From positions 64,001 to 128,000 of the forward strand of contig CAZLEV010000005.1 of the NCBI GenBank assembly GCA_964558645.1: a DNA stretch of 64,000 bases, in the 5' to 3' direction. The translations under genes and the position numbers were made by a program. Under the pieces are notes generated by a model that ran no database searches, was not told the DNA's origin, and saw only the letters and a program-made list of their open reading frames with translations. Shown piece by piece: positions 37,463-41,081 of the stretch (position 1 is the stretch's first letter; every line of letters begins with the position of its first letter). Origin of the DNA: an uncultured archaeon. Its GTDB lineage: Archaea > Asgardarchaeota > Thorarchaeia > Thorarchaeales > Thorarchaeaceae.

Positions 37463-38209
37463 TTATTCCGGATACACTACATTCTCTGTGATTGCTTGGT
37501 AAAAGTCATCTATTGGAGTAGTCATGAGCCCATTTGCATTCAACCAGTAGCCTGTTTCAGCGAAACCTGTGATCTCTGGATGGTCATATTCGGTGAACTG
37601 TCCAGTCCACGTACCATTCTGCAGAAAGACCATCTGATCCGACTCGGTATATCCGATGTAGAAGAATGTGTTGTCGTCGAAGAAGATGCTGACGTAGAAG
37701 TCTATTGGCCAAGTCGATGGAAAATCGGCCGGATGCTCGGTGGCGTCCGGCATCTGAGCGATTGCGTCATCTACCAGAGAACCGCTCAGAATGTCCCATT
37801 CGTCTGGGGATATCTCGCCGTGACCTGTTATGTCTGCAGTGTATGGTGCGAAGAGAACATCGATGGTGCTGGTTCCTGCATGTCTTGACATCTTGACCCC
37901 ATCAACGAAAGCATCAGGTGCAGTCTCTTGATAATGCTGTGTGAGACGCTCATTAACAAATGACGAATTACACATCCAGTAGAATACGACATCATCCCGT
38001 CGGCTGTTGATATACTCTGCCGCCCTTGCCCCAAGACCTTCCTGTGTTCCGTCAGGGACTCCTGTCTGGTCAGTTGGTCGAAAGATGGATAGAGCGAGAA
38101 AGCCCGATATCACAATCACTGCAATAATGATTGATGCAGTTGTCACCTTCCCCAATGTAGTTTCATACCACTTCAGTCTCAACACCTGACCATACATCTT
38201 AACAAACAA
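37463..38209 (-). CDS. Membrane-anchored extracellular hypothetical protein
   Basis: N-terminal TM (ASIIIAVIVISGFLALSIF) followed by an acidic soluble domain; start uncertain. Confidence 0.75.
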   Translation of the reverse strand: MFVKMYGQVLRLKWYETTLGKVTTASIIIAVIVISGFLALSIFRPTDQTGVPDGTQEGLGARAAEYINSRRDDVVFYWMCNSSFVNERLTQHYQETAPDAFVDGVKMSRHAGTSTIDVLFAPYTADITGHGEISPDEWDILSGSLVDDAIAQMPDATEHPADFPSTWPIDFYVSIFFDDNTFFYIGYTESDQMVFLQNGTWTGQFTEYDHPEITGFAETGYWLNANGLMTTPIDDFYQAITENVVYPE

Positions 38210-38480: not shown

Positions 38481-38882
38481 GTGATCCGGATTCCCATTGA
38501 GTATCTCTGGCTAGCCATAATCACCGGGGGATTGTATCTCTATCTAGAACACAGGGACGTTCGATTCGGAAATCTGCCTCTGACTTTCATCCTAGCCCTC
38601 ATCTGGTCTGCGTGGAGCCTCTTCATTGTCATCTCCGTCGGACCACACCTCACAGGCCCGTTTGCTCCTGATCCGCCGGGTCTGACTCCAAGCCCTTCAC
38701 TGATAAGAGCCACCATCTTCACATTCATGATTGCTCCCACTGTCCTCCTGCTTTGGTTCATGGTAGAGACCCAGCTTCTGACATTGCTAGAGCACAACAG
38801 AGATAGTAACTCGAACCATAGAGTTAAATATCTTCACAATAGTTATTTCGTGAAGGTCAGGTGCGACCGAGATGACAGATAA
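38481..38882 (+). CDS. Small membrane protein (about 3 TM)
   Basis: Hydrophobic segments; GGAGAGGTGA SD before GTG. Confidence 0.6.
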   Translation: MIRIPIEYLWLAIITGGLYLYLEHRDVRFGNLPLTFILALIWSAWSLFIVISVGPHLTGPFAPDPPGLTPSPSLIRATIFTFMIAPTVLLLWFMVETQLLTLLEHNRDSNSNHRVKYLHNSYFVKVRCDRDDR

Positions 38883-39111
38883 ACCTGTGACGACCATTGA
38901 TTGTGTAGGACTCTACTGTCCACAACCCATCTTTCAGACAAGAGAGGGAATCGAGTCAGTAGAGATCGGTGAAGTAGTGGAGATTCTTGCAGATGACCCA
39001 GGAGCGGAGTCCGACTTGAAACGGTTCACAAAGAGGACTGGCCATGAGCTCGTTTCATTCCAGAAGCTGGAAGATGGAGTCCTCCGATTCCTGATCAGAC
39101 GAAAGAAGTAG
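38872..39111 (+). CDS. tusA: TusA/SirA sulfur carrier
   Basis: IDCVGLYCPQP (CPxP) and LADDPGA..DL. Confidence 0.92.
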   Translation: MTDKPVTTIDCVGLYCPQPIFQTREGIESVEIGEVVEILADDPGAESDLKRFTKRTGHELVSFQKLEDGVLRFLIRRKK

Positions 39112-39126
39112 TGGAAGGAAGAGAGA

Positions 39127-40305
39127 ATGAACAGCGTCTACCTGGACTATCACTCGTCGAAACCGACAGACAAGAGAGTAATTGACGAGATGATGCCCTA
39201 TTTCACAGAGCTATACGGGAACCCATCGTCGCTTCATAAGATAGGGGACCTCGCCTCCGATGCGATGGAGGCAAGCAGAAAGAAAGTGGCGGATTTCATC
39301 AATGCAGATGAAGACGAGATTGTATTCACAGGTAGTGCCACTGAGGCCACAAACATGGCGCTCATCGGCTATGCGATGAAGAACAAGCGGAAGGGCAAGC
39401 ACATCATCATAACCGAGGTCGAGCACATCTCAATCCGCAACATAGCCAAGTATCTTGAAGCGAATGGCTTCGATGTGTCACGGGTCCCTGTGGACCAATA
39501 TGGCATGGTGGCACCGGACAAGATTGAACGGAGGATTCGCGATGACACTATCCTCATCAGTGTGATCTATGCCAGCAACGAGATAGGTACAATCCAGCCA
39601 ATCAAGGCCATAGGTGAGATTGCAGCTAAGCATGATGTTGCATTTCACTCGGACGCTGTCGCAGCCGAGGGACTGGTCCCTCTCGATGTAAGACGTGACG
39701 GCATCAACCTGATGACACTGTCAGCAAATGATTTGTATGGCCCTCGAGGGGTCGGGGCGCTCTACATGCAGAAACGCTACAGGGTGAATCCGATTATAAT
39801 CGGCGGGGGACAAGAGAGAGGACTGCGGTCCGGCTCTGAAGACGTTCCCGGAATCGTTGGGATGGGAGCAGCCGCAACGCTTATGCAGAGGGAGATGAAG
39901 GACGAACTGAAGCGCATGGAGTCATTTCGAAACAGGACTATAGATACAATCCTTCAGGAAGTGCCCGATTCCTATCTGAACGGTCATCCAACTGAGAGAC
40001 TGGCAAGCAACTCACACCTCAGGTTCGACGGTATTGAAGGAGAGGCATTGCTACTCTCATTCAAAGATCACGATATTGCAGTGTCAACGGGCTCGGCGTG
40101 TACCTCAAAGACCCTTGAGGCATCCCACACACTCATTGCCACTGGTCTGACCCACGAAGAGGCCCACGGGTCACTGCAGCTGACAACCGGAAGATTCACT
40201 GAAGACTCTGACATTGATAGAGTGCTTGATGCGACCCCTGACATAGTTAGCAATCTCAGAAGACTGTCACCCATCTACAACGAGAAGAAGGTGTTTGTAA
40301 GATGA
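39127..40305 (+). CDS. iscS: IscS/NifS-family cysteine desulfurase homologue with the PLP Lys replaced by Asp
   Basis: VYLDY, YGNPSS, SNEIGT, RSGS and STGSACTS. It has LSANDLYGPRG in place of SxHKxYGPKG. Confidence 0.9.
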   Translation: MNSVYLDYHSSKPTDKRVIDEMMPYFTELYGNPSSLHKIGDLASDAMEASRKKVADFINADEDEIVFTGSATEATNMALIGYAMKNKRKGKHIIITEVEHISIRNIAKYLEANGFDVSRVPVDQYGMVAPDKIERRIRDDTILISVIYASNEIGTIQPIKAIGEIAAKHDVAFHSDAVAAEGLVPLDVRRDGINLMTLSANDLYGPRGVGALYMQKRYRVNPIIIGGGQERGLRSGSEDVPGIVGMGAAATLMQREMKDELKRMESFRNRTIDTILQEVPDSYLNGHPTERLASNSHLRFDGIEGEALLLSFKDHDIAVSTGSACTSKTLEASHTLIATGLTHEEAHGSLQLTTGRFTEDSDIDRVLDATPDIVSNLRRLSPIYNEKKVFVR

Positions 40306-41081
40306 AACCTACCAAATATTCAGACAAAGTATTAGACCACTTCAGAAACCCACGTAATGTCGGCGTACTCGAAGGCGATGATGTCTCAGTAGGGAGGGTT
40401 GGAAATCCGACCTGTGGAGACCAGATGGAGGTCTTCATCAAAGTACAAGACGACCGCATCGTGGACGCAAGATTCAGGACCTTTGGCTGCGGCTCAGCTA
40501 TTGCAACCAGTAGCATGGTCACGGAGATGGCAAAAGGGATGACATTGGACGAGGCCCTTGACATAGAAAGAGCAGATGTCGCAACAGAGCTCGAGGGTCT
40601 ACCACCAATAAAGATGCACTGCTCAAACCTTGCTGCTGACGCACTTCATGAGGCAATCAAGGCATACCGGGCCAGAGAGGGAAAGGAACTGTCCGAGGCG
40701 ATCGAAGATAATGGTCCGGAGCCCTCGTGTCTCATTGGCAAAGACGAGTATCTTGACAAGGGAGTCTACCTGGATGTTGCGGATACTGATGATTTCTCGG
40801 GCAAGAGAGTCATCGTTCTCCACACGGGCGGCGAGTCAGTAGATGCTGCACTAGAGCTCACGTCCCAGACCGACCGCGTTGTTCTGATAACACCAGAGAG
40901 AAATATAGTGACAACTGAGGATCTTGCAGAAGAGCTACGCAGGTCGTCGGTCAAGGTTATCACTGAGTCAAGAGTTCTCGAGGTCTTGGGCGACTACGAA
41001 GTCGAAAAGGTCCGTGTGCATAATCTAGACGAGGATGAGGAATACGACCTCTTCGTAGACGCAGTGGTCATCATCGAGTAG
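40302..41081 (+). CDS. iscU: IscU/NifU scaffold fused to a degenerate TrxB NADPH-binding domain
   Basis: HFRNPRNVG, GNPTCGD, FGCGSA and KMHCSNLA, followed by about 115 aa resembling the thioredoxin reductase middle domain. Confidence 0.9.
   Translation: MKPTKYSDKVLDHFRNPRNVGVLEGDDVSVGRVGNPTCGDQMEVFIKVQDDRIVDARFRTFGCGSAIATSSMVTEMAKGMTLDEALDIERADVATELEGLPPIKMHCSNLAADALHEAIKAYRAREGKELSEAIEDNGPEPSCLIGKDEYLDKGVYLDVADTDDFSGKRVIVLHTGGESVDAALELTSQTDRVVLITPERNIVTTEDLAEELRRSSVKVITESRVLEVLGDYEVEKVRVHNLDEDEEYDLFVDAVVIIE

What the first reader, a model, noticed from the sequence alone, without database searches (positions are those of the whole stretch)
40302..41081. Novel IscU fusion to a disarmed thioredoxin-reductase NADPH domain
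Seen: after a complete IscU (three Cys), IGKDEYLDKGVYLDVADTDDFSGKRVIVLHTGGESVDAALELTSQTDRVVLI...VLEVLGDYEVEKVRVHN...DLFVDAVVI tracks the TrxB middle domain (PGEEEFxGRGVSYCAxCD..FxGKxVxVVGGGxSAxEEALxL...VxEIxGDxxVxxVxxxN...LxVDGVFI). The CxxC, GxGxxA and HRR motifs are lost. Inference: a pseudo-enzyme docking or regulatory domain. Together with the Lys-less IscS and TusA, this looks like an undescribed variant Fe-S/sulfur-relay operon.
Basis: partly seen in the sequence, partly recalled or inferred. Interest (0 to 1): 0.75.

Follow-up and report, generated by a model that had tools for sequence, protein, structure and literature searches.

The report
IscU scaffold with relic reductase domain
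This Asgard (Thor-type) archaeon's only iron-sulfur scaffold protein, IscU, ends in a conserved but cofactor-less leftover of a flavin reductase. Related archaea still carry that reductase whole on IscU, which hints at how this minimal Fe-S assembly system once obtained electrons.

Summary
ORF 40302-41081 (+) encodes 259 aa: a complete IscU (residues 1-127), a disordered linker, and a C-terminal domain (144-259). The C-terminal domain is the NAD(P)H-binding domain of the thioredoxin-reductase fold and lacks its nucleotide motifs.

It is not a one-off. The same ~260-aa protein sits after a PLP-lysine-less IscS (SSND motif) and TusA in hundreds of Thor-, Loki-, Hel- and Sigyn-type Asgard genomes. 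These include Lokiarchaeum ossiferum and Prometheoarchaeum syntrophicum. It also occurs in many anaerobic bacteria (WOR-3, Syntrophus/Smithella, Coriobacteriia and others).

Jordarchaeia, Methanoperedens and ANME-2 carry IscU fused to the complete reductase (~444 aa, FAD and GxGxxA motifs intact, no CxxC). The short form aligns as that protein minus both FAD segments.

The relic is under purifying selection (dN/dS 0.03-0.12) and is strongly acidic (net charge -17 here).

Best reading: a catalytically dead docking module, probably binding the conserved basic patch of the dead IscS. That function is inferred, not shown.

The canonical cassette has a fourth gene, DsrE-like, which this genome lacks.

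I found no paper describing any of this. The scan has already reported the same fusion on at least eight other genomes.

The parts
38872..39111 (+). TusA-type sulfur carrier (79 aa, CPxP motif 'YCPQP'), first gene of the cassette
   Evidence: Pfam TusA E 6.9e-23. It is conserved upstream of the IscS/IscU pair in most related loci.
39127..40305 (+). IscS/MisS-like protein (392 aa) of the Archaeoglobus fulgidus 'inactive' type. The PLP lysine is replaced by Asp (LSANDLYGP). H205 is Asn, Q183 is Ala and R354 is Gln. The loop Cys (GSACTS) is kept.
   Evidence: The best solved relative is A. fulgidus IscS2 (4eb5_A), E 2.1e-131, with the same S-N-D motif. Residue census over 74 cassette IscS aligned to E. 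coli IscS.
40302..40682 (+). IscU/MisU scaffold domain (residues 1-127) with cluster ligands C38, C63, C107 plus D40 and H106
   Evidence: Pfam NifU_N E 1.2e-49. PDB 7c8m E 1.9e-50 and 4eb5_C E 1.1e-45. The ligand columns are invariant in alignment A2.
40683..40730 (+). Variable, acidic linker (residues 128-143), predicted disordered. Cys143 is conserved only in Thor-type sequences.
   Evidence: pLDDT is below 50 for residues 127-142. Linker identity is 12-19% between Thor and Loki forms. The Cys is not conserved in Loki-type sequences.
40731..41081 (+). Relic NAD(P)H-binding domain of a TrxR-type (FNR-like) flavoreductase (residues 144-259, plus the stop codon). It has no FAD domain. GxGxxA is replaced by HTGGES and HRR by TPE. 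Net charge is -17, and it carries a conserved acidic hairpin 'NLDEDEEY'.
   Evidence: TIGR01292 positions 119-232, E 1.8e-13. Foldseek hits to 2zbw, 3f8r, 3lzw and 4o5q. Alignment to full-length fusions. dN/dS 0.03-0.12. Charge.

Best explanation
**What it is.** The gene encodes the scaffold of a minimal (MIS-type) Fe-S assembly pair, MisS/MisU in the naming of the review PMC13066941. The IscU domain is intact and should assemble clusters together with the adjacent IscS-like protein. That protein cannot make persulfide from cysteine because it lacks the PLP lysine. By analogy with A. fulgidus, it serves as a structural partner and a Cys ligand.

**The C-terminal domain.** It is the leftover NAD(P)H-binding domain of a thioredoxin-reductase-fold, ferredoxin-NADP-reductase-like flavoprotein that was once fused whole to IscU. 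Jordarchaeia, Methanoperedens and ANME-2/Methanosarcinales still have that complete fusion. In the lineage leading to this protein, both segments of the FAD domain were deleted and the dinucleotide-binding loop decayed. The domain can therefore no longer bind FAD or NAD(P)H or pass electrons.

**Why it persists.** It is kept under purifying selection and became highly acidic.

**Inferred role (not shown).** It acts as a tethered docking module. It would hold the scaffold on the conserved basic patch of the IscS partner, or occupy that patch. In the bacterial ISC system this is the surface that binds the acidic partners ferredoxin, CyaY/frataxin and IscX. A possible further role is in iron or partner recruitment.

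**Shown versus inferred.** Shown: fold, loss of motifs, conservation, distribution, and the existence of complete fusions. Inferred: the order of events (complete fusion first) and the docking role.
For: **Fold and motif loss**
- Fold and loss of motifs.
- Across the family the first Gly of GxGxxA is replaced by H, Y, F, E or D, and the loop carries D/E.

**Complete fusion exists**
- L036:1501-2847 (Freyarchaeum/Jordarchaeia) encodes 448 aa. TIGR01292 covers profile positions 1-300 at 226 bits, alongside the NifU match. It has GGGPAG, GNGDQA and GIYAAGD motifs.
- More than 100 clusters of ~444 aa come from Jordarchaeia, Methanoperedens and ANME-2.

**Relatedness of the relic to the complete fusion**
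- The window protein aligns to these as IscU + NAD domain with both FAD segments missing. It shares the 'L-D-E-D/N-E' hairpin, which none of the 34 free TrxR-like sequences aligned show except free_P0304, a sequence that groups inside the ANME-type full-length fusion clade.
- The NAD domain of the Freyarchaeum protein finds the window's C-domain as its best hit in this genome (E 5e-16), ahead of the genome's own TrxRs.
- An HMM of relic domains scores seven of the twelve complete fusions tested at 78-86 bits, with three of the other five at 64-74 bits. The best free relative among 1.84 billion representatives scores 77.5 bits.
- In the ML tree the relic clade is monophyletic (100/100). Its sister is the clade of complete fusions, with weak support of 56. 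A tree holding all fused forms together is not rejected (p-AU 0.355).

**Constraint**
- dN/dS is 0.03-0.12 for the relic and 0.014-0.056 for the IscU domain.
- The fusion is present in 79 of 85 genomes of the family, in five further Asgard families and in many bacteria.

**Docking idea**
- The relic's mean net charge is -12.6 (n=77). The NAD domains of complete fusions average -4.2 and free homologues -1.6.
- The cassette IscS keeps basic residues at E. coli positions R112 (74/74), R116 (67/74), R220 (68/74), R225 (60/74) and R237 (68/74).

**Other**
- No separate FAD-domain-only gene exists in this genome.
- The electron donor of MIS is stated to be unknown (PMC13066941).
Against: - No experiment or complex model supports the docking role. 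The tools here fold single chains only.
- AlphaFold gives no fixed arrangement of the two domains (pTM 0.50).
- The tree does not resolve the position of the relic clade with confidence: support is 56 and the stem is long (0.89). 'Derived from the complete fusion' therefore rests mainly on the shared architecture, junctions and hairpin motif.
- Basic residues on IscS may be conserved for other reasons.
- Thor proteins are acidic in general (IscS is -11 over 392 aa), though far less so per residue.
- The assignment of that patch to ferredoxin, CyaY and IscX binding comes from my knowledge of the E. coli literature and was not re-read here.
Confidence: 0.6

Rival explanations
1. The acidic relic works like frataxin/CyaY. 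It binds Fe2+ on its carboxylate-rich surface and hands it to the IscU site, acting as a built-in iron donor rather than a mere clamp.
For: The domain has strong net negative charge (-17 here, mean -12.6) and a conserved D/E-rich hairpin and loop. It is about 116 residues, close to the roughly 106 residues I recall for CyaY (from memory, not checked here). No frataxin-like gene is in the cassette.
Against: No metal-binding motif is conserved. The acidic positions vary between lineages. There is no experimental or structural support. This reading overlaps with the docking explanation and does not exclude it.
Confidence: 0.15
2. The relic promotes dimerisation of two IscU domains so that two [2Fe-2S] clusters can be coupled into a [4Fe-4S] cluster.
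For: IscU dimers are proposed to couple clusters (Methanothrix IscU, summarised in PMC13066941). The closest solved IscU relatives are those dimeric archaeal IscUs (7c8m).
Against: In low-Mr TrxR-fold enzymes the dimer interface is made by the FAD domains, which are missing here (general knowledge of the fold). A domain with net charge -17 is unlikely to self-associate without counter-charges.
Confidence: 0.1
3. The domain still binds a nucleotide or related ligand and acts as a redox or energy sensor that regulates the scaffold.
For: The Rossmann-type fold is retained with high model confidence. The third Gly (G176) and the Ser/Ala at the end of the loop are mostly kept.
Against: The first Gly of GxGxxA is replaced by varied bulky or acidic residues, and the loop carries D/E that would repel pyrophosphate. 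The HRR / 2'-phosphate site is gone and is not replaced by any conserved residues.
Confidence: 0.08
4. The domain is a neutral evolutionary remnant or an annotation/assembly artefact with no function.
For: It has lost all the catalytic motifs of its parent family.
Against: dN/dS is 0.03-0.12. The reading frame is intact in hundreds of species, including closed genomes. The architecture is conserved across Archaea and Bacteria.
Confidence: 0.03

Closest known systems
Archaeoglobus fulgidus IscS2-IscU pair (PDB 4EB5, 4EB7, 4HVK; 4R5F), a MIS-type (MisS/MisU) minimal Fe-S system
   Same: The IscS partner is the closest solved relative (E 2.1e-131) and has the same Lys-to-Asp change at the PLP site and a retained loop Cys. 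The IscU domain is 63% identical to 4eb5_C in the Foldseek alignment, with the same ligands. It is a two-gene core without HscAB, Fdx or IscA in the operon.
   Different: A. fulgidus IscU is 153 aa and has no reductase-derived domain. The cassette here adds TusA and, in most genomes, a DsrE-like protein.
Complete IscU-flavoreductase fusions (~444 aa) of Jordarchaeia/Freyarchaeum, Methanoperedens and ANME-2/Methanosarcinales (unnamed; annotated 'NifU' or 'thioredoxin reductase')
   Same: The N-terminal IscU, the junction into the NAD(P)H domain, the acidic 'EDE' hairpin and the lack of CxxC are all shared. In Freyarchaeum the neighbour is also an SSND-type IscS.
   Different: They keep both FAD-domain segments and a GxGxxA loop, so they are presumably active reductases. 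The window protein has lost all of these.
TrxR-type ferredoxin-NADP+ reductases (Thermus thermophilus 2ZBW, Bacillus subtilis YumC 3LZW, Bacillus cereus FNR2 6GAS) and low-Mr thioredoxin reductases
   Same: The fold and sequence of the NAD(P)H domain match: 26-31% identity and rmsd 1.6-2.8 A over about 120 residues. The FNR-type lack of CxxC is shared.
   Different: There is no FAD domain, no dinucleotide loop and no 2'-phosphate site, and the domain hangs on IscU.
NifU (three-domain scaffold with a central redox-active ferredoxin-like domain)
   Same: In concept, both are IscU-type scaffolds carrying an extra redox module in the same polypeptide (PMC13066941).
   Different: The appended domains are unrelated. 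NifU's extra domains bind Fe-S clusters, whereas the module here is flavoprotein-derived and, in the short form, cofactor-less.
Acidic partners of IscS in the bacterial ISC system (ferredoxin, CyaY/frataxin, IscX)
   Same: This is analogy only. Both are small acidic modules proposed to bind a basic patch on IscS, and that patch is conserved as basic in the cassette IscS.
   Different: There is no sequence or fold relationship. Binding is not shown here.

Membership tests
IscU / NifU_N scaffold (PF01592; MisU in the MIS nomenclature) | Profile match over the whole domain | tested here: met
   Pfam E 1.2e-49 over residues 5-127. TIGR03419 scores 185.7 bits, just under its 187.9 cut-off.
IscU / NifU_N scaffold (PF01592; MisU in the MIS nomenclature) | Three cluster-ligand Cys plus the conserved Asp and His | tested here: met
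   C38, C63, C107, D40 and H106 are invariant in 50 sequences.
MIS-type minimal system (MisS + MisU) | Adjacent IscS-like and IscU-like genes without HscAB, Fdx or IscA in the operon | tested here: met
   IscS and IscU overlap by 4 nt. The neighbours are TusA, a GNAT and others. No MIS-specific phylogeny was made.
Low-Mr thioredoxin reductase (TIGR01292) | FAD-binding domain (N- and C-terminal segments, GxGxxG) | tested here: not met
   Only profile positions 119-232 of 300 are matched, at 49.9 bits against a cut-off of 343. Both FAD segments are absent in the alignment.
Low-Mr thioredoxin reductase (TIGR01292) | Redox-active CxxC in the NADPH domain | tested here: not met
   The sequence is 'GVYLDVADTD' where TrxR has 'GVSYCATCDG'.
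Low-Mr thioredoxin reductase (TIGR01292) | NADPH motifs GxGxxA and HRR | tested here: not met
   HTGGES and TPE stand at these positions. They are degenerate across the family.
TrxR-type ferredoxin-NADP+ reductase | NAD(P)H-domain fold without CxxC | tested here: met
   The best solved relatives are 2zbw, 6gas and 3lzw.
TrxR-type ferredoxin-NADP+ reductase | FAD cofactor domain | tested here: not met
   It is absent from the protein. No FAD-domain-only gene exists in the genome.
A. fulgidus-type PLP-lysine-less IscS (partner gene) | Lys206 (E. coli numbering) replaced by Asp, with the loop Cys328 retained | tested here: met
   D in 72 of 74 and E in 2 of 74 cassette IscS. C328 in 74 of 74. Also H205N in 74 of 74 and Q183A in 73 of 74. 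The best PDB hit is 4eb5_A.
A. fulgidus-type PLP-lysine-less IscS (partner gene) | No PLP binding and no desulfurase activity | not testable with these tools
This needs biochemistry.
TusA sulfur carrier (PF01206) | Profile match and the CPxP active-site Cys | tested here: met
   Pfam E 6.9e-23. 'LYCPQP' is in the translation.

The most novel reading that the evidence does not exclude
The complete IscU-flavoreductase fusions identify a TrxR-fold, FNR-like flavoprotein as the long-sought electron donor of the ancient MIS Fe-S assembly system. The relic in Thor- and Lokiarchaeia and in many anaerobic bacteria would then be its docking half. After loss of redox chemistry it was re-used as a tethered acidic, frataxin/ferredoxin-site-like module that positions IscU on a catalytically dead IscS, within a TusA-DsrE sulfur-relay cassette. 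If so, this would be a distinct, widespread and undescribed sub-type of Fe-S biogenesis machinery, present in the cultured relatives of the eukaryotic host lineage.
Probability: 0.3. Interest if true: 0.8.

Novelty: new variant of a known kind. Interest (0 to 1): 0.6.

Why it matters
- **A concrete candidate for a missing electron donor.** MIS (IscS/IscU-only) systems are thought to be very old and are the least studied Fe-S machineries. A 2026 review states that their electron donor is unknown (PMC13066941). A scaffold fused to a complete flavoreductase in Jordarchaeia and methane-cycling archaea gives a testable candidate.
- **A case of a dead enzyme domain kept for another purpose.** The short form shows such a domain retained for a non-catalytic job in the only IscU of these genomes.
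- **It can be tested in culture.** The fusion is present in the two cultured Asgard archaea.
- **A wider unit that seems unrecognised.** The four-gene cassette (TusA, DsrE-like, dead IscS, IscU-relic) is shared by phylogenetically distant anaerobes. I found no description of it as a unit.
- **A practical correction.** Public annotations of these proteins are inconsistent. The L. ossiferum protein is named 'Ferredoxin--NADP reductase', which it cannot be.

Tried and rejected
1. **Tree of NAD(P)H domains.** The relic clade is solid, but its attachment to the complete fusions has only weak support (56). The AU test merely fails to reject a single fused clade (p 0.355). It is not proof.
2. **Exhaustive HMMER search with the C-domain.** Beyond the fusion family it returned mostly fragments. 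These were 5'-truncated ORFs starting at 'MHCSNLAAD' and odd hybrids (P0075, P0278: half a TusA joined to part of the relic; P0270: IscS C-terminus joined to the relic's end). I regard them as gene-calling or assembly products and drew nothing from them.
3. **A conserved fourth cluster ligand in the linker.** Cys143 is nearly invariant in Thor-type sequences but absent or displaced in Loki-type ones. Rejected as a general feature.
4. **A split FAD-domain partner encoded elsewhere.** tblastn with the FAD segments of the complete fusion finds only ordinary full-length flavoproteins in this genome.
5. **Co-occurrence of the fusion with the IscS K-to-D change.** All 74 cassette IscS have it, but so do IscS next to an unfused IscU (L035) and next to the complete fusion. 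The change is therefore not specific to the fusion.
6. **Literature.** Six full-text searches found no description of either fusion or of the cassette. Garcia et al. 2022, the paper that defined MIS, is not held. Prior mention there cannot be excluded.
7. **AlphaFold models.** Neither the short form (pTM 0.50) nor the complete form (pTM 0.60) shows a fixed inter-domain arrangement. No mechanism could be read from them.
Full report
**1. The observation**

The + strand ORF 40302..41081 encodes 259 aa. Its ATG overlaps the stop codon of the upstream IscS-like gene (39127..40305) by four bases. TusA (38872..39111) lies just before that gene.

Pfam places NifU_N on residues 5-127 (E 1.2e-49). NCBIfam places the thioredoxin-disulfide reductase model TIGR01292 on residues 146-257. 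That match covers profile positions 119-232 of 300 at E 1.8e-13 and 49.9 bits, against a cut-off of 343.

A search of solved structures with the C-terminal 122 residues alone finds TrxR-like and ferredoxin-NADP+ reductase chains first (2zbw E 7.6e-8, 6gas E 2e-7, 3lzw, AhpF).

An AlphaFold2 model built on 50 homologues shows two folded domains joined by a disordered linker. Residues 127-142 have pLDDT below 50, and the C-domain has pLDDT 83-91. Foldseek aligns the C-domain to the NAD(P)H domains of 2zbw, Sulfolobus TrxR-B3, B. subtilis FNR and AhpF. These alignments cover about 120 residues at rmsd 1.6-2.8 A, with E 3e-12 to 5e-11.

**2. Motifs**

- The IscU part has C38, C63, C107, D40 and H106, all invariant in 50 relatives.
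- In the C-domain the dinucleotide loop GxGxxA reads H-T-G-G-E-S.
- Across the family the first glycine is H, Y, F, E or D, and the loop carries acidic residues.
- The HRR site reads T-P-E.
- There is no CxxC.
- There is no FAD domain at all.
- The domain therefore cannot be a reductase.

**3. Not a one-off**

A word-indexed protein search with the C-domain found 75 clusters (90% identity), mostly about 259 aa (range 143-286). All named ones were 'Candidatus Thorarchaeota'.

A six-frame search of 400 genomes of the phylum gave the following:
- Full-length matches (residues 1-259, 55-95% identity) in 79 of 85 genomes of the window's family.
- Full-length matches in five further families.
- One isolated match in a sixth family.

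Exact look-ups name two of these proteins:
- Lokiarchaeum ossiferum UYP44078.1, 280 aa, annotated 'Ferredoxin--NADP reductase'.
- Prometheoarchaeum syntrophicum QEE15270.1, 275 aa, annotated 'scaffold protein'.

A scan of one genome per prokaryotic species found 200 confirmed loci, of which the best 80 were kept:
- Most of the 80 are Asgard: Thor, Promethearchaeota/Loki, Hel and Sigyn, plus MAGs labelled Hermod and Odin.
- About 27 are bacterial: WOR-3 (including a closed chromosome, CP070664.1), Stahlbacteria, Deltaproteobacteria, Syntrophus, Smithella, Deferrimicrobium, Actinobacteria/Coriobacteriia (contigs up to 816 kb), Eubacteriales, Spirochaetota, Fibrobacterota and Aerophobetes.
- Two more carry Thermoplasmata and Bathyarchaeota labels.

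In these loci the protein is 257-270 aa. Wherever the flank is present, it follows an IscS with the S-S-N-D motif and a TusA. Earlier notes of this scan had said that bacteria carry it. I tested that claim here, and it holds.

**4. Where the domain came from**

One Asgard genome lacking the short form (family f16) has a 448-aa ORF, L036:1501-2847. Protein names point to Freyarchaeum/Jordarchaeia. In this ORF, IscU is followed by a complete TrxR-like flavoprotein:
- TIGR01292 covers profile positions 1-300 at 226 bits.
- It has the FAD motif GGGPAG, the NAD motif GNGDQA and the C-terminal GIYAAGD.
- It has 'YYYV' instead of CxxC.
- The neighbouring IscS also has the S-S-N-D motif.

More than 100 clusters of this ~444-aa architecture exist in Jordarchaeia, Methanoperedens, Methanosarcinales and ANME-2.

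Aligned to them, the window protein is IscU plus the NAD(P)H domain, with both FAD segments cut out exactly at the two crossover strands. It shares an acidic hairpin ('L-D-E-D/N-E') with the complete fusions. None of the 34 free TrxR-like sequences aligned have it except free_P0304, which groups inside the ANME-type full-length fusion clade.

Further evidence for the relationship:
- The NAD domain of the complete fusion hits the window's C-domain as its best match in this genome (E 5e-16), ahead of the genome's two true TrxRs.
- An HMM of relic domains scores seven of the twelve complete fusions tested at 78-86 bits, and three of the other five at 64-74 bits. The best free relative from an exhaustive search of 1.84 billion representatives scores 77.5 bits.
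- In a maximum-likelihood tree the relic clade is monophyletic (100/100) on a long stem. Its sister is the clade of complete fusions, but with support of only 56.
- A tree holding all fused forms together is not rejected (p-AU 0.355).

I conclude, with good but not complete confidence, that the short form descends from a complete IscU-flavoreductase fusion through loss of the FAD domain. The CxxC was therefore not 'lost' from a thioredoxin reductase. The parent was FNR-like.

**5. Is the relic functional?**

Pairwise Nei-Gojobori estimates for close Thor-type pairs give dN/dS of 0.03-0.12 for the relic. The IscU domain gives 0.014-0.056. The linker is free to vary: 12-19% identity between Thor and Loki forms.

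Together with retention across two domains of life, this excludes a decaying remnant.

The relic is strikingly acidic:
- Net charge is -17 over 116 residues here.
- The mean is -12.6 in 77 loci.
- NAD domains of the complete fusions average -4.2.
- Free homologues average -1.6.

**6. The partner and the cassette**

The IscS-like protein is closest to A. fulgidus IscS2 (4eb5_A, E 2.1e-131), which has the same Lys-to-Asp replacement.

In 74 cassette IscS aligned to E. coli IscS:
- K206 is D (72) or E (2).
- H205 is N in all 74.
- Q183 is A in 73.
- R354 is E, Q, L, V or A.
- The loop Cys328 is invariant.
- The basic residues at positions 112, 116, 220, 225 and 237 are mostly kept as K or R.

The same S-S-N-D IscS also sits next to an unfused 149-aa IscU in another Asgard genome (L035). 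So the lysine loss is a property of this IscS clade, not of the fusion.

Most cassettes contain a fourth gene between TusA and IscS. It encodes a ~120-aa DsrE-family protein (Pfam DsrE E 3.5e-16, motif 'VCEAS'). It is present in 57 of 80 loci and in 10 of 12 loci fetched earlier. In the window TusA and IscS abut, with only 15 bases between the genes (39112-39126). The gene is also missing in the two closest relatives, and only a 31%-identical paralogue exists elsewhere in the genome.

**7. Genomic setting**

- This is the only NifU_N gene in the 93%-complete genome.
- A SufB/SMS-type scaffold gene is present.
- Two desulfurase-like genes with an intact H-K motif exist elsewhere. One is fused to a SelD-like N-terminus on contig 12. 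The other is SufS-like, on contig 6.
- No FAD-domain-only gene was found.

**8. Mechanism**

Shown:
- An intact scaffold domain.
- A dead partner desulfurase.
- A cofactor-less, acidic, selectively constrained reductase relic on a flexible tether.

Inferred:
- In the complete fusions the flavoprotein feeds electrons to the nascent cluster. This is the role played by ferredoxin reductase and ferredoxin in ISC, and the donor is unknown for MIS (PMC13066941).
- In the short form only the docking half survives. It now binds the basic patch of IscS, or another cassette protein. That would hold or position IscU, and perhaps gate iron entry.

The tools here cannot model complexes. The single-chain models show no fixed domain arrangement (pTM 0.50 for the short form and 0.60 for the complete form). 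The functional part therefore remains a hypothesis.

Rivals are a frataxin-like iron donor, a dimerisation module, a ligand sensor and a neutral remnant. They are scored in the report sections.

**9. Novelty**

Six full-text searches found no paper describing the short fusion, the complete fusion or the four-gene cassette. The paper that defined MIS is not held.

The proteins are in public databases under generic or wrong names.

The same fusion has been reported by this scan on at least eight other genomes, with the same general reading. My results agree with those notes independently on fold, origin, acidity and bacterial distribution.

I class it as a new variant of a known kind: a MIS-type IscS/IscU system with a relic reductase domain and a TusA/DsrE front end.

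Noticed in passing
window 39111-39127 (junction of TusA and IscS); compare L060:995-1369, L076:1020-1382: The usual cassette has a ~120-aa DsrE-family gene ('VCEAS' motif) between TusA and IscS. It is present in 57 of 80 loci and in 10 of 12 loci fetched earlier. It is deleted in this genome and in its two closest relatives. Only a 31%-identical paralogue exists, at G000:C21:26359-26673.
   Followed up: partly
L036:1501-2847 (G117, Freyarchaeum/Jordarchaeia); proteins P0076-P0195: A 448-aa IscU fused to a complete CxxC-less TrxR-like flavoprotein. The same ~444-aa architecture is common in Methanoperedens and ANME-2/Methanosarcinales. Its NAD(P)H site lacks the HRR motif, so the electron donor (NADH, F420H2 or other) is open.
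   Followed up: partly
G000:C12:109400-110800 (outside the window): The genome's best E. coli-IscS-like gene (44% identity, intact 'AGHK' PLP motif) continues in the same frame into a SelD-like N-terminus ('GLGCACKL'). This looks like a NifS-like/selenophosphate-synthetase fusion, probably serving selenium metabolism rather than Fe-S assembly.
   Followed up: no
The IscS here lacks the PLP lysine, H205, Q183 and R354, so it is unlikely to act as a cysteine desulfurase. The H-K-bearing genes on contigs 12 and 6 are better candidates.
   Followed up: partly
P0200 = L023:7018-7857 (Lokiarchaeum ossiferum UYP44078.1): The orthologue in the cultured L. ossiferum is annotated 'Ferredoxin--NADP reductase', although it has no FAD domain and no nucleotide loop. 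Loki-type orthologues also carry a short C-terminal tail with a Cys (e.g. '...CADDD').
   Followed up: no
P0075, P0278, P0270 (metagenome contigs): These are short ORFs in which half a TusA, or the C-terminus of IscS, is joined directly to part of the relic domain. They are probably deletion variants or assembly chimeras within the cassette.
   Followed up: no
L039 (G117:C1:1936785-1937156): The Freyarchaeum genome has a second IscS/IscU pair with a canonical 'SGHK' IscS. The IscU match there contains an in-frame TAA.
   Followed up: no
window 38481-38882 (+) and 37463-38209 (-): Two ORFs just upstream of TusA have no Pfam match. One is a 133-aa hydrophobic protein whose end overlaps the TusA start. 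The other is a 248-aa protein with an N-terminal hydrophobic stretch.
   Followed up: no
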